A stretch of 64,000 bases of DNA. It comes from Curvularia clavata. Taxonomy: Eukaryota. The DNA is taken from assembly GCA_023920165.1 (NCBI GenBank), contig CP089276.1, positions 4,650,001 to 4,714,000 on the forward strand, given 5' to 3'. Made by a program: the position numbers and the translations under genes. Positions 13,766-32,839 of the stretch are shown here, piece after piece (the first letter of the stretch is position 1; each line of letters opens with the position of its first letter). A model generated the notes under the pieces. That model saw only the letters and a list, made by a program, of their open reading frames with translations. It was not told where the DNA came from and ran no database searches.

Positions 13766-15325
13766 TTACAATCTGAAATTCATGTGGTTCAAAGGAGGAA
13801 TAGGGACAAGGGGGCGGGATCCCACTTCTTTTGCATTAACCCAGTTTCCATGGATCTGAGCACGCAAACGCAGAGGTAGTTCGATGACCGCCGTAGGAGC
13901 TTGGAAGTCGCCCGTTGTGTCTAAGATAACCAAATTGGTGAGATTGACGTCGAAGCGATCGACAGCAAAGATTACATATCCGTCTCCCTCAGGAGCACTG
14001 TCAGAGCGAGCGATGAAAACAGGTTCCATGCATCGGACGCTTGGCCCTGGGTAGTAAATTTTCAACTCCTTGGTAGACTTGGTGAGCATAGCGACAGCGT
14101 TCAAAGAAGAAAAGATAGGTTTTTCCAAAGTCTCGCGAGAATCAGAATGGAATACGTTCATGAAAACGATATCACTAGGCTTGGTCGTGTAACGTTCATC
14201 GATACGACAGAATTCATTCGGTATGTCGACGAGAACCTCGGGATCCTTCAGAGTATGTTTGTCGGGTGCCAAAGGGTTGATCTCGAAACGGACCAGCTCA
14301 ACAATCGTGTTTCCGGCGACATTTTTTGGGTCTGGAGCGAGCCAGGGGAAAATGGAAGAACTAAGATTTTTGGGCCATGTGCCCTCCAAAACAATTTTTC
14401 CGTCTTCATTCTCCCACGCACCTGCTGTATGGATTATGGCGGAATTTTCAGGGTGTATATAAGTACGCGCTTCATAGGGTTTCCATCCCGATCCAGCCAG
14501 GGGTTGGTCAGGTCGACGTGGAACAACAACCAGTCTGGTAGGTATGTTTGGGTCATAGAACATTGGACTCATGCCCTCCTTGATATCACTTCGAAGTCTT
14601 GTCGGCCATGGGGCAAAGACGATCCAATTTTCAGTGACAGCACAATCGTGGCAGAGTACGTGGTCTGGGACAGAAATATGATGCTCGTTTGAGATGCGTC
14701 CTTGGCGGTCGATTGAGAAGGAGATGATGTTGTCGGGTTGTGCTGAATATGCGATCATTGTGTCGGTATGAGGGTCAATATGGGGGTGCGCTGTAAAGGT
14801 CGGCGTCCTGATTTGCGGGCGGTAAGGATCCATACCAGTAGTTTCAAGAGTATCGGGATCAAGGGTAAAGGCAGTGCCGTTCTCAGATAAGGCGTGGAGG
14901 CGACCAGCCCAGTGAACCACATTTGTACTGGTCGTCTGTTCTATAACAGCCTGGACACAGGGGTGATGCAACCACGGACTTCCTTCCAGCCCTGTGAAAT
15001 TGCCCTGACGCTGGTTTTTGTCGATTTTGTATTTATCGTTGTGCACGTACTTGATCTTGAAATCGACTCGGCCCTTGTGAATCCGGAATGCTGTGACAAC
15101 ACCGTTGCCTGCCCAAGGCAGATAATTCTCTCCCGGTGGTGTCACTTTGTCTTGTCCAATACGATAGAAGGTCCCATCTACGCAATCAGGTATAGTCCCT
15201 CGTACAATAACGTCGTTGATTTCTCCTTCGAGACGAACAGGCGGATCGAGACCGGATAAGTCTTGAACAAAAGTCCATTCTGAGAGAAGGTTTTCAGCAC
15301 CCTTGATAGGAGTTAGAGAAGTCAT
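13766..15325 (-). CDS. Carotenoid oxygenase / RPE65-family dioxygenase (lignostilbene dioxygenase-like), intronless, about 519 aa
   Basis: GTIPDCVDGTFYRIG, four Fe-ligand His contexts (FTAHPH, LCHDCA, IIHTAGAWE, QIHGNW) and EPVFIARS..APEGDGY. First ATG at 15325. Confidence 0.9.
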   Translation of the reverse strand: MTSLTPIKGAENLLSEWTFVQDLSGLDPPVRLEGEINDVIVRGTIPDCVDGTFYRIGQDKVTPPGENYLPWAGNGVVTAFRIHKGRVDFKIKYVHNDKYKIDKNQRQGNFTGLEGSPWLHHPCVQAVIEQTTSTNVVHWAGRLHALSENGTAFTLDPDTLETTGMDPYRPQIRTPTFTAHPHIDPHTDTMIAYSAQPDNIISFSIDRQGRISNEHHISVPDHVLCHDCAVTENWIVFAPWPTRLRSDIKEGMSPMFYDPNIPTRLVVVPRRPDQPLAGSGWKPYEARTYIHPENSAIIHTAGAWENEDGKIVLEGTWPKNLSSSIFPWLAPDPKNVAGNTIVELVRFEINPLAPDKHTLKDPEVLVDIPNEFCRIDERYTTKPSDIVFMNVFHSDSRETLEKPIFSSLNAVAMLTKSTKELKIYYPGPSVRCMEPVFIARSDSAPEGDGYVIFAVDRFDVNLTNLVILDTTGDFQAPTAVIELPLRLRAQIHGNWVNAKEVGSRPLVPIPPLNHMNFRL

Positions 15326-16106
15326 TTGAGCGTAAATAATATGATTCTTCAACTAATCCTCCTGCGTAGATATATTGGTTTTGCTTTGAACTGCTGAATG
15401 GGAAAAGCTTGTCTTTTTATAAGCTGCTTGAGGTCTGAATTCCCCCAGGAGTCACAACTAATGCTCTAGATGTATTGGATATTCATATATCTCATCAGCC
15501 CATAACAGTTCGGCATTCGGCTTTAGATGTGCCGCGATTCATGGTGCCGCTCCATTAATCGGTTCCGAAGTCGCGAGCCCAGGAAATTAGTCTGCAACCG
15601 GCCTCTCGGACAACTGGTAAAACCGCGAATAGGCTCACCCTGTCACTAGTAGTGCAAATGTTACATGTGATTGAGCTATACTTCTCTAGCACTAGACCTA
15701 GATTATAGTAGGTAAGCTAGTTAGTAGTAAGCTATATAACGGGCTGGTACTCCTTTGACCTTACTCCTTGATAGGATCTTGGGTAGTTTTCCTATTACGT
15801 GGTCAGATTCACTTTCTTCTTACCCTTCTCTCAATCTTATCTGATCCAGATCAGATTGAATCAGAGATTTCTCAGATCGAACATCTTGATCAGTGATCGA
15901 TATCGTGGGTTGCGACAGTGTCTCATCACACCGTGCATCCCGGCACGTAGGGACGGAAGTGACTGACTCTATTCCAGCCCAATAGAATTCACGAGATGTA
16001 TATGCAGGCTATCTAGTAATCTAGAAACCCACAGAGTATAAGCGATAAATATGATTGGCCGACAATTCAATTGAAGGCTTGATTGGCATGTGCATATATC
16101 TTAGGC

Positions 16107-30450: not shown

Positions 30451-30917
30451 ATCAAGATGGGTCGCGATAATATCTGTTTGGTGTACCTCTATATCCTCGG
30501 CTTCAAGGTAGTTTTGATAAGGCCGCGCGTCAGCGGGGTGGTGGGGCACGGTATTCGGAACACGGAGCATCTACCTAGTTCCGAAATGCGGGGCATCTAC
30601 ACTCATGCAAAGCTAAGACATGCTAAGATGTTATCGAATAGCTCAGTTATCTGAAACTCACATCTGTTCAGAGCTGTTGGTTCTGGTTTTTGTGATGTCT
30701 GAGTATTACAAATTGGTCAGCTGTTGGCAGCATGAACTTTATTAGTAATACGTATTACCACTAATTGAATGACCGTATATTGCCCGATAGCCTCTACATA
30801 AGTAGATGAGGCGACTCAGACAATGATCAGTCAACTCTACACACAATTTCGTCACGCATGAAAGACTGCAAACTTAACTTACAATACTCAACACCAATGT
30901 AGCTTCTTCTGGCAGCT

Positions 30918-32839
30918 ATGGCTACTAGCACCACCGCCCGAGAGATGCTCAACATAGTTGGACCCAGAGACACCAACGTAGAAGGCAGCAGTCTTCCTAT
31001 TGAGCTTCCGGAAGATTTCCTGTCTGGATTCCCTAAACTTACAAAAGAACAAGCCGGTCATATCCGTCATTTTCATAATCTGGCTTTCCAGCCCGATGGC
31101 GAGTGGCACCATATGGGCACTCAAGACCCCGGTCAAGAGTGGCTTGATGCTTACCGCTATCAACTGGCGACCATGGCATATGCCGCTGGAAGTGCACACT
31201 ATCACCGCCTACCTGCTCTACGATCGCTATTCAAACCCTTGTTAGAGCAGCTCATTCATAAGATGTTACGAAGAGAAGTCTGGGGGTATTGGTATCTGAC
31301 TAGTCAAAGCGGAAAGTTTGTGGATCCTGATTTAACTGAGATGCGTAAGCCTTGGGCGGATCCTATTAAGCAAGAAAATATTATGGTAGGTGACTATACG
31401 AAAAGTGGACATACTTGCATCTAGTCTAACCTTGATTTTTTCCAAGTACTCTGGGCATCTCCTCCTCATGGTCTCATTGCACGCAATGCTTTTCGACGAC
31501 GACAAGTACGACCAACCGGAAGCGCTGACATTCCACTGGGATCCGATATTCTGGGGGTTTGGACCAGAAAAGTTCACCTACACCCGCAGTACCCTTGAAG
31601 AAGTTATCCTAGCCGAAATGGAGCGGCACAACTGGAAGGGCGTCTGTTGTGAGCCAAACAGTATTTTTATCGTGTGCAACCAATTTCCGGTGCGATAACA
31701 ATCATTTTTAAGCTCTCAGCAGATCTTCTGACGGCTTCTAGATCATTGCGATGCGGTACAACGATGTTCGTAACGGAACCGCCATAGTTGACAATGTCCT
31801 AAAGAACTACGTTGAGGCATGGGAGAAGAGTGGTGGATTCCTGCAAGATGACAAATTTGTCATCAACTCATATATGGTGAAACAAGGTCGTACAATCCCC
31901 GGTGGTATTGGATTCACTGCCTGGTAAGCAAAGCCAGAAAGCTGCTTACTTTTTAGAGTGATTGCTCACAGTAAGAAAGGGCAAGTGCATTCATGAACAG
32001 TTGGAACTCCCAGTTGATTCATTCGCTTTTCACAGACCAATCTGTGGGGTTTTTTACGAAGGTTCCTGGTGGGAGAGTTAACGTGAATGACCAAAGGATA
32101 GCCAATCTCATCCGCAATCTCGTAAAAAGTGAGGGTGCGGATCCGCAAGCCTGGAGCACAAAGGAAAAGGCACAAGAACTGGCAAAAGACATAGATGAAA
32201 CGCCCAAATTTGCTTTTCTACAGCCTGCATATGGTTATATTGCTCAATGGGCGTCTGAAGTTGCTGATTCAACCATAACCGATGGTCTTATGCGTCACGC
32301 AGATGAATTCCATAATCCCTTGTGGGAGAGAGGTGGCCTCTTCTATCCCCGAAACGATACACTGTCCGATAGCCAAGGAAACTGGAAATTCATGGATCCT
32401 TATACGGGAAACGCAGCCATTGCTTATGCACGACTCAACGTCCCAGACGGTCAGAGAAAGATGTGGGAGAAGCCGTGGTCCAAGGAGCATTTCTCTGACT
32501 TTCCGTTCGTCGATGGGATCAGTCTGGCTTCTGATGTTGATTTTCTCAGGGGCAACTGGGATTCAGGAAAGGGAGCTTTTGTTGTTTCTATGCAGACTTG
32601 GGATGGCTCGAAGAAAGAGTAAGTTACAGAAGTTGTATTCTGTAGGCTGAATATTGACAGCTTCTAGTGTTCGATTCCTAGTTAAGAATCTGCCTTTTGG
32701 GCGGTATGGTATTTATCGAAACGGAAAAATTCTGGAAACGCAGGATGTGTATGGACATCCAACTACCGTGGAGATATTGGTTGAAGTAGGAGCGGAAGAG
32801 GTGGATGTTGTACTACTACGTTCAAGTATAGTAGGCTAG
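30918..32839 (+). CDS. Linalool dehydratase/isomerase (Ldi)-domain protein, 5 exons
   Basis: AYRYQLATMAY, DPIKQENIMYSGHL and GVCCEPNSIFIVCNQ. Exons 30918-31385, 31447-31689, 31742-31923, 31980-32618 and 32668-32839 join in frame without stops. Confidence 0.82.

What the first reader, a model, noticed from the sequence alone, without database searches (positions are those of the whole stretch)
13766..32839. Candidate alkene/terpenoid catabolic cluster: dioxygenase + ALDH + GMC oxidoreductase + linalool dehydratase/isomerase-like gene, split by a retrotransposon
Seen: CCD, ALDH and GMC are adjacent, with ALDH and GMC divergent. The Ldi-like gene would be about 3.8 kb from GMC without the 6.86-kb Gypsy insertion, and only relics lie between them. 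Established: in Castellaniella defragrans, Ldi converts myrcene/linalool to geraniol, which an alcohol dehydrogenase and an ALDH oxidise to geranic acid; CCD-family enzymes cleave C=C bonds to aldehydes. Inference: a fungal route for hydrating or isomerising, oxidising and cleaving a plant alkene (terpenoid or phenylpropene). The substrate is unknown and Ldi membership rests only on proximity.
Basis: partly seen in the sequence, partly recalled or inferred. Interest (0 to 1): 0.74.

Follow-up and report, generated by a model that had tools for sequence, protein, structure and literature searches.

The report
Odd fungal alkene-cleaving enzyme trio
Near a fungal chromosome end, three genes probably help break down a plant aromatic compound, one encoding an untested kind of double-bond-cutting enzyme; the fourth gene proposed for a terpene pathway looks like an unrelated neighbour.

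Summary
The layout is real: CCD and ALDH (minus strand), a divergent GMC, a 6,857-bp RIP-decayed Gypsy, then an intact Ldi-like gene 3.79 kb from GMC without the insertion. The locus lies 67-86 kb from a contig end carrying telomere repeats.

The four-gene terpenoid pathway is not supported. A 58% CCD relative has unrelated neighbours, and the genes have different closest relatives. ALDH linkage was tested in one locus only.

(1) The CCD keeps its iron ligands but belongs to a fungal clade lacking the Tyr/Lys pair that grips 4-hydroxyaryl substrates. (2) The ALDH is vanillin/salicylaldehyde-dehydrogenase-like and has a premature stop at codon 441 here, probably strain-specific. (3) The GMC lacks a signal peptide and all five conserved glycosylation sites, so it is probably cytosolic. 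All three are seen in RNA contigs.

Best reading: a young, lineage-restricted module converting an aryl alkene or alcohol to aldehyde and acid (0.45), versus chance neighbours (0.3). The untested CCD clade is the main interest.

The parts
13766..15325 (-). CCD-family 4-His Fe(II) dioxygenase, 519 aa, single exon; member of a fungal clade lacking the Tyr/Lys phenol-binding pair (E114, S147 at those columns); H180, H226, H299, H492 and E148, E371, E434 kept
   Evidence: RNA contigs of run X9 cover it end to end
16107..17690 (-). Vanillin/salicylaldehyde-dehydrogenase-like ALDH, 3 exons (introns 17168-17217, 16255-16306); second copy of a gene on contig C2 (55-83% by exon)
16318..16320 (-). Premature TAG at ALDH codon 441, cutting off about 52 residues including the conserved last exon; present in the window and run X2, probably absent in RNA runs X9 and X14 (inferred)
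   Evidence: tables 3 and 8
17820..18137 (.). 159-bp tandem duplication (92%) inside the shared ALDH/GMC divergent promoter
18397..20269 (+). PatE-like GMC oxidoreductase, 587 aa, 3 exons; FAD motif and both C-terminal active-site His kept; no signal peptide; 0 of 5 conserved N-glycosylation sites; in-frame stop two codons before the ATG
20601..27457 (+). RIP-decayed Gypsy LTR retrotransposon, target duplication GCGAT; 35 matches listed in the genome, one other full-length
27463..30917 (.). Spacer: short repeats plus about 2.5 kb of unique, unidentified DNA
30918..32839 (+). Intact Ldi-like (PF18566) gene, 567 aa, 5 exons; M156/H160 and C224/E225/C233 match LinD M125/H129 and C171/E172/C180; single copy in the genome; membership of the module not supported
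33259..34212 (+). Broken fragment of a reducing-PKS C-terminus (KR domain) just downstream of the Ldi-like gene

Best explanation
A small, lineage-restricted catabolic module of three genes, assembled in a transposon-rich subtelomere from parts of different ancestry. Shown: all three are seen in RNA contigs; the CCD keeps its iron site but lacks the 4-hydroxyaryl anchor; the ALDH is closest to aromatic-aldehyde dehydrogenases; the GMC lacks secretion features. Inferred mechanism: in the cytosol the CCD uses Fe(II)/O2 to cut the side-chain C=C of an aryl alkene without a para-OH (methoxylated, unsubstituted or ortho-substituted phenylpropene, styrene or stilbene), giving an aromatic aldehyde. 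The GMC oxidises the matching benzyl- or cinnamyl-type alcohol to the aldehyde. The ALDH takes the aldehyde to the acid, which enters general aromatic catabolism. In this strain the ALDH copy is probably dead, with the C2 paralogue as possible cover. The Ldi-like gene is an intact, probably active cysteine-dependent (de)hydratase/isomerase of unknown substrate that is only a neighbour.
For: CCD: His/Glu ligands kept. Clade of 26 tree rows at SH-aLRT 100, window sister to Cercospora at 99 (quick tree, 47 of 120 hits). Lys column: 0 of 27 clade rows versus 68 of 90 others; Tyr column: 2 of 28 versus 84 of 90. MapADO needs K169/Y136 and a para-OH (PMC12308385, PMC12333492). ALDH: top three structural hits are salicylaldehyde and vanillin dehydrogenases, E 8e-70 to 6e-53, next 2.5e-44. 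GMC: intact frame, both introns spliced in 3 of 3 RNA runs from 2 studies. It lacks sequons held by 25, 22, 17, 9 and 9 of 25 orthologues, and the hydrophobic N-terminus seen in 19 of 22 measured. This fits long residence outside the secretory route better than recent decay. ALDH and GMC share a 706-bp divergent promoter. Ldi unlinked: different contigs and tags about 1,100 genes apart in Cercospora kikuchii; no shared contig lengths; 0 of 80 bacterial Ldi-like loci carry a CCD or GMC.
Against: The trio was found in no other genome. L013 (58% CCD, 5.4 kb upstream and 6.3 kb downstream held) has HIS3, a Zn2Cys6-type regulator, DUF4267 and AP-2 mu instead. The GMC's relatives are Pleosporales-wide and none of its top 120 hits is from Cercospora; in Lophiostoma GMC and CCD lie on different contigs. 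No transporter or regulator gene adjoins the trio, and no shared promoter word exceeds chance. No substrate or induction data exist. The GMC departs at 12.5% of conserved columns versus 1.4-8% in 25 orthologues, which could be decay. Carotenoid-type CCDs also lack Tyr/Lys (recalled; only 36 of 108 wider representatives have Lys), so a non-aromatic polyene substrate is not excluded.
Confidence: 0.45

Rival explanations
1. Chance mosaic: four unrelated accessory genes collected in a subtelomere, some decaying, with no shared pathway.
For: No conserved linkage found. Different closest relatives: CCD-Cercospora, GMC-Pleosporales, Ldi-Alternaria atra, ALDH-own C2 paralogue. Nonsense codon in ALDH. 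The surroundings hold Gypsy and DDE elements and PKS and FMO fragments. Other CCDs of this genome also lie near dehydrogenases.
Against: Tight spacing (780 and 706 bp), a divergent ALDH/GMC pair, chemically matching activities, apparent relocation of the GMC to the compartment of the other two, low naive chance (about 1e-4, assumed gene count).
Confidence: 0.3
2. One reading: Ldi hydrates or isomerises a plant terpenoid alkene or allylic alcohol, GMC and ALDH oxidise it, and the CCD cleaves it.
For: Ldi is intact (2 departures at 146 conserved columns) and keeps the LinD Cys/Glu/His/Met motifs. Bacterial relatives lie near a Zn-ADH in 16 of 80 and an ALDH in 13 of 80 loci, echoing Ldi-GeoA-GeoB. 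A pocket without Tyr/Lys could take a terpenoid. CCD-clade and Ldi hits both name C. beticola, C. kikuchii, F. decemcellulare, Macrophomina and Diaporthe PMI_573, and Cercospora is a near relative in both trees.
Against: In those species the listed contigs differ (firm only for C. kikuchii, where both clusters have one member). ALDH is closest to aromatic-aldehyde enzymes. Ldi-like proteins are far from LinD (profile E 2e-20). 3.5 kb of unidentified DNA intervenes even without the Gypsy.
Confidence: 0.13
3. Remnant tailoring genes of a lost polyketide cluster, for example an alkenyl-salicylaldehyde type (cluster type recalled, not from a call).
For: A reducing-PKS KR fragment abuts the Ldi-like gene; the GMC's best structural hit is patulin synthase; the ALDH's is salicylaldehyde dehydrogenase.
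Against: The PKS piece is under 1 kb and broken. No intact backbone enzyme was seen among the larger ORFs of the window or of the 20 kb before and 36 kb after it. The genes are still transcribed without it.
Confidence: 0.1

Closest known systems
Aromatic/stilbene-cleaving dioxygenases: MapADO (PDB 9G88), LsdA, CAO1, NOV1
   Same: Same family (E 1e-90 to MapADO); four Fe-binding His and second-shell Glu; the HPC motif of the fungal ADO lineage.
   Different: Tyr136 and Lys169 equivalents replaced (E114, S147), both columns hypervariable across the clade; far below the NCBIfam LSD cut-off (293 versus 800 bits); substrate unknown.
Fungal gentisate-catabolism cluster with sdoG and adhG (PMC3914699)
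   Same: A stilbene-dioxygenase-type gene clustered with an aldehyde dehydrogenase, proposed to take an alkene to aldehyde to acid.
   Different: No salicylate hydroxylase, gentisate dioxygenase, fumarylpyruvate hydrolase, regulator or transporter beside the trio; a GMC instead; not found conserved across genomes.
Castellaniella defragrans Ldi-GeoA-GeoB myrcene pathway
   Same: Ldi-like protein keeps the catalytic Cys/Glu/His/Met motifs; an alcohol-oxidising enzyme and an ALDH lie nearby.
   Different: LinD is a secreted 372-aa pentamer, this is a 567-aa protein with no evident signal peptide; GeoA is NAD-dependent, this is a GMC flavoprotein; no CCD is part of the pathway passages I read; linkage not conserved.
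Vanillin/salicylaldehyde dehydrogenases (PDB 9IHB, 6QHN, 4JZ6; A. niger VdhA)
   Same: Top structural hits; catalytic Glu (ELGGK) and Cys (GQICMS) motifs present.
   Different: Second copy in this genome; truncated by a premature stop in this strain; not compared directly with VdhA.
Patulin synthase PatE-like secreted GMC oxidoreductases
   Same: Best PDB hit (E 2e-96); FAD motif and His/His active site.
   Different: Falls with a separate Pleosporales clade; lacks signal peptide and conserved sequons; no patulin genes seen nearby.

Membership tests
Stilbene/phenylpropene-cleaving dioxygenases (LSD/ADO) | Four Fe-binding His with second-shell Glu | tested here: met
   H180, H226, H299, H492; E148, E371, E434
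Stilbene/phenylpropene-cleaving dioxygenases (LSD/ADO) | Tyr/Lys pair binding the substrate 4-OH | tested here: not met
   E114 and S147; Lys in 0 of 27 clade rows. The Tyr column lies in a gappy loop, so the Lys result is the firmer one.
Stilbene/phenylpropene-cleaving dioxygenases (LSD/ADO) | Cleaves resveratrol, isoeugenol or 4-vinylguaiacol | not testable with these tools
   needs assay
Linalool dehydratase/isomerase (LinD) | Catalytic Cys pair with Glu, His and Met motifs | tested here: met
   Profile alignment to 5G1U/5HLR and window model; the catalytic role of these numbered residues is recalled, the review passage says only that two Cys act
Linalool dehydratase/isomerase (LinD) | N-terminal secretion signal and 372-aa single-domain size | tested here: not met
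   567 aa, polar N-terminus by inspection, extra C-terminal part; no signal predictor run
Linalool dehydratase/isomerase (LinD) | Active site between subunits of a pentamer, capping disulfide, N-terminal catalytic residues | tested here: inconclusive
   LinD residues before about 115 were not in the matched stretches; no fold or complex run for this protein
Linalool dehydratase/isomerase (LinD) | Interconverts myrcene, linalool and geraniol | not testable with these tools
   needs assay
Conserved fungal catabolic gene cluster | Same genes co-located in independent genomes | tested here: not met
   L013 negative for ALDH, GMC and Ldi; no credible shared contig among 120 CCD, 86 Ldi and 120 GMC hits; an indirect test, and ALDH was not searched across genomes
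Conserved fungal catabolic gene cluster | Co-regulation | not testable with these tools
Gentisate-catabolism (GC) cluster | Core genes fphG, ctfG, gdoG, sahG | tested here: not met
   None beside the trio among the ORFs scanned
Functional ALDH | Full-length frame including the C-terminal HGG-containing segment | tested here: not met
   TAG at codon 441 in the window and X2; probably met in other strains
Gypsy LTR retrotransposon | Paired LTRs, target duplication, RT-RNaseH-integrase order | tested here: met

The most novel reading that the evidence does not exclude
The CCD represents a fungal subfamily of about 30 database proteins (Cercospora, Aspergillus, Penicillium, Fusarium, Colletotrichum, Diaporthe and others) that has shed the 4-hydroxyl anchor and cleaves non-phenolic aryl alkenes such as anethole, methyl-isoeugenol, cinnamyl or ortho-hydroxy types, which the tested 4-His aromatic dioxygenases do not convert. 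Here it is caught while a new cluster forms around it, with a secreted oxidase moved into the cytosol and a duplicated aromatic-aldehyde dehydrogenase.
Probability: 0.3. Interest if true: 0.72.

Novelty: new variant of a known kind. Interest (0 to 1): 0.42.

Why it matters
Two 2025 papers (PMC12308385, PMC12333492) state that 4-His aromatic dioxygenases appear limited to substrates with a para-OH, and that none of the homologues tested converted anethole or methyl-isoeugenol. A natural clade that keeps the iron site but lacks the Tyr/Lys anchor is a direct, cheap set of candidates for testing that limit, an enzymatic alternative to ozonolysis, and may point to a class of plant defence compounds that fungi degrade. 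The locus may also show a catabolic cluster being assembled and partly lost. As a conserved four-gene terpenoid pathway it does not hold up.

Tried and rejected
Accession-level synteny look-up could not be made, so linkage rests on contig lengths, locus tags and one metagenome locus. ALDH was not searched across genomes; the three protein searches went to CCD, Ldi and GMC.

AlphaFold model of the CCD: mean pLDDT 72 but under 50 over residues 59-74 and 95-131, the substrate loops, so no pocket shape is claimed and no fold search was run. ESM Atlas returned only the known families.

Shared promoter words: one 8-mer common to three regions, about what chance gives, none at 9-10 nt. RIP as a general cause of gene decay: TpA/CpA ratios of the four genes differ little from neighbouring genes.

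A hydrophobic in-frame stretch upstream of the GMC start may be a relic signal peptide (hydropathy 2.25); this sits badly with the loss of all sequons, so it is left open. One-base deletions in run X2, two of them inside ALDH exons, are absent from the RNA runs covering them and are treated as errors of that run. Patchy CCD cover in X14 and X17 is not used to rank expression. No listed holder was on record as RNA; the spliced joints identify X9, X14 and X17 as RNA. My first Ldi model had wrong exon ends and was replaced. The careful CCD tree did not finish; only quick trees are cited and no gene-transfer test was run.

Literature: 8 searches of a CC-licensed library listed no paper on this CCD clade, on a fungal Ldi cluster, or on Ldi with SCO1; subscription papers are not covered. 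The supplements of bioRxiv 10.1101/184242 (stilbene-dioxygenase cluster models) were not seen and may bear on novelty; Table S3 of PMC12333492 was seen only in part. Look-ups of earlier findings by sequence and by place were empty.
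Full report
Setting. The window is G000:C3:4650001-4714000 of a 32.4-Mb, 8-contig fungal genome. C3 is 4,749,760 bp and carries TTAGGG repeats at its end, so the finding lies 67-86 kb from a likely telomere, among Gypsy and DDE elements and AT-rich RIP blocks. Database entries matching the Ldi and GMC genes at 98-100% carry the source label Curvularia clavata. Both are mis-spliced models: the Ldi entry omits the Cys motif and is fused to the PKS fragment.

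Observation. The Gypsy spans 20601-27457 with target duplication GCGAT; removing it leaves 3,786 bp between the GMC stop and the Ldi start. RNA contigs confirm both GMC introns (3 of 3 runs, 2 studies) and both ALDH introns (one in 2 runs, one in 1), and cover the CCD fully in one run.

The dioxygenase. It keeps four His and three Glu of the iron site. Against MapADO, the closest solved structure (E 1e-90), Tyr136 and Lys169 align with Glu114 and Ser147. In MapADO, K169A and Y136A nearly abolish isoeugenol cleavage (PMC12308385, parts 1-2 of 3 read). Only para-hydroxy substrates were converted, and anethole and methyl-isoeugenol failed with every homologue tested (PMC12333492, passages). The loss is a clade trait. 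Of 120 listed hits (805 found), 30 form a group at about 47-71% identity: Lys in 0 of 27 ungapped rows and Tyr in 2 of 28, against 68 and 84 of the other 90. A quick tree of 47 of these rows gives the group SH-aLRT 100 and puts the window with two Cercospora proteins at 99. A profile search at 50% clustering returned one strong representative and a few partial ones, so the subfamily is small and discrete. Its scattered taxa suggest transfer or repeated loss; this was not tested. Outside the LSD lineage the Lys is often absent (36 of 108 representatives have it), so its loss says 'not a 4-hydroxyaryl substrate' and does not say which substrate. The genome also has a conventional Tyr/Lys copy on C4.

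The ALDH. Its top structural hits are salicylaldehyde and vanillin dehydrogenases. A. niger VdhA is needed for growth on vanillin (PMC8336404, passages); I did not align to it. A paralogue on C2 is 55-83% identical by exon, with exon breaks at the same places. The window copy has an in-frame TAG at codon 441, 12 nt before an RNA-confirmed intron, which cuts off about 52 residues including the conserved last exon. Run X2 has the same letters. In X9 and X14 the piece counts show one more difference than is listed, and no listed place lies closer than about 30 nt to a piece end in every run that shows it. The unlisted difference therefore probably lies at 16307-16337, where the stop is. I infer, but have not shown, that the stop is strain-specific.

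The GMC. Its best structure is patulin synthase, but it groups with a Pleosporales-wide clade (SH-aLRT 100, end branch 0.62). None of the top 120 of 501 hits is from Cercospora. The frame is intact with the FAD motif and both active-site His. It starts 10 residues before the conserved motif, where 19 of 22 measured orthologues have a hydrophobic extension; 3 do not, and 3 more could not be measured. It lacks all five sequons found in at least 8 of 25 orthologues, including one present in 25 of 25. An in-frame stop two codons upstream is shared by X14. This suggests a secreted oxidase that moved to the cytosol, where CCD and ALDH would act (inference; no signal predictor was run). Its 12.5% departure at conserved columns, the highest of 26, fits either a new role or relaxation.

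The Ldi-like gene. It is intact, single-copy and conserved (2 departures at 146 conserved columns), and keeps motifs matching LinD M125/H129 and C171/E172/C180. It is nevertheless far from LinD (profile E 2e-20) and closer to an uncharacterised bacterial family (up to 43%). Its tree sister is Alternaria atra, then Cercospora. In 80 of 108 bacterial loci kept, neighbours are SCO1/SenC (49), Zn-ADH (16), SDR (17) and ALDH (13), with no CCD or GMC. The family probably does make or move an alcohol, as in the Ldi-GeoA-GeoB route (PMC4109377, PMC6013536, passages), but that ties it to no gene here.

Linkage. The metagenome scan gave 3 loci from 87 candidate stretches. L013 (58%) holds enough flank to show ALDH and GMC at the window's spacing and has neither, nor Ldi. 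L014 is too short and L015 is a Tyr/Lys-type gene. Cross-matching contig lengths of 120 CCD, 86 Ldi and 120 GMC hits gave only this genome and one 3,529-bp match between entries from different sources, judged chance. In C. kikuchii CCD and Ldi lie on different multi-megabase contigs, tags 10255 and 9142. In Lophiostoma CCD and GMC lie on different draft contigs. The test is indirect, since one length is shown per cluster, and ALDH was not searched. Against my reading, CCD-clade and Ldi hits co-occur in five named species, with Cercospora near in both trees.

Mechanism. Most likely (0.45) is a young three-gene cytosolic module: aryl alkene without para-OH cut to aldehyde by the CCD, aryl alcohol oxidised to aldehyde by the GMC, aldehyde taken to acid by the ALDH, with the last step probably disabled in this strain. 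Gene structure, transcription and residue changes are shown; substrates, shared pathway and localisation are inferred. Rivals are chance neighbours (0.3), the four-gene terpenoid route (0.13) and a polyketide-cluster remnant (0.1).

Comparison and novelty. It works like the sdoG+adhG part of fungal gentisate clusters (PMC3914699, passages) but lacks their core genes. The CCD works like an ADO but fails the Tyr/Lys membership test. The Ldi-like protein is a PF18566 member, not shown to be a LinD. Eight literature searches listed no study of this CCD clade; cluster tables in the supplements of bioRxiv 10.1101/184242 (main-text passages only seen) were not available. Verdict: new variant of a known kind, interest 0.42; the value lies in the untested dioxygenase clade rather than in a conserved pathway.

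Noticed in passing
L028-L107 (bacterial Ldi-like loci): An SCO1/SenC gene lies in 49 of 80 loci, mostly directly downstream of or overlapping the Ldi-like gene, across Proteobacteria and Actinobacteria; it may keep the catalytic cysteines reduced or deliver a metal. A paper search for both terms found nothing.
   Followed up: partly
L110:4611-6230 and L110:9486-9998 (G000 C6): Another CCD of this genome lies about 3 kb from an ALDH, with SnoaL-like and NmrA-like genes and a probable Zn2Cys6 regulator nearby; it looks like a second dioxygenase-aldehyde cluster.
   Followed up: partly
L108:2269-9125 (G000 C4): A conventional Tyr/Lys ADO-type gene sits beside a Zn-alcohol dehydrogenase, an alpha/beta-hydrolase and an SDR.
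   Followed up: partly
P0041, P0049, P0051, P0054, P0056, P0058, P0067, P0069, P0071, P0083, P0085, P0089, P0100; P0028, P0030-P0035, P0039, P0052: Two more fungal CCD subgroups change the anchor Lys to Glu/Asp or to Arg, suggesting further untested substrate classes.
   Followed up: partly
window 53507-60151: Ldh_2-family dehydrogenase, Zn2Cys6 regulator, dihydroxy-acid dehydratase and SDR lie together: a possible sugar-acid catabolic cluster.
   Followed up: no
window 3345-7500, 41750-43950, 61724-64000: Several pogo/Fot1-like DDE transposons with terminal inverted repeats, three with long open frames, one apparently nested in another.
   Followed up: no
window 11615-12678: Long inverted arrangement (358- and 98-bp arms) that includes sequence like the Gypsy LTR.
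   Followed up: no
window 38830-39219 and 40171-41276: FMO-like fragment and an SDR near transposon ends.
   Followed up: no
window 45166-47133: ABC half-transporter with an acidic N-terminal stretch.
   Followed up: no
window 8145-8498: Small ORF with an apparent signal peptide; no family over cut-off.
   Followed up: no
P0121 and P0207: Public gene models for the Ldi-like and GMC genes are mis-spliced: Ldi lacks the Cys motif and is fused to the PKS fragment; GMC is joined across the Gypsy to a spurious exon.
   Followed up: yes
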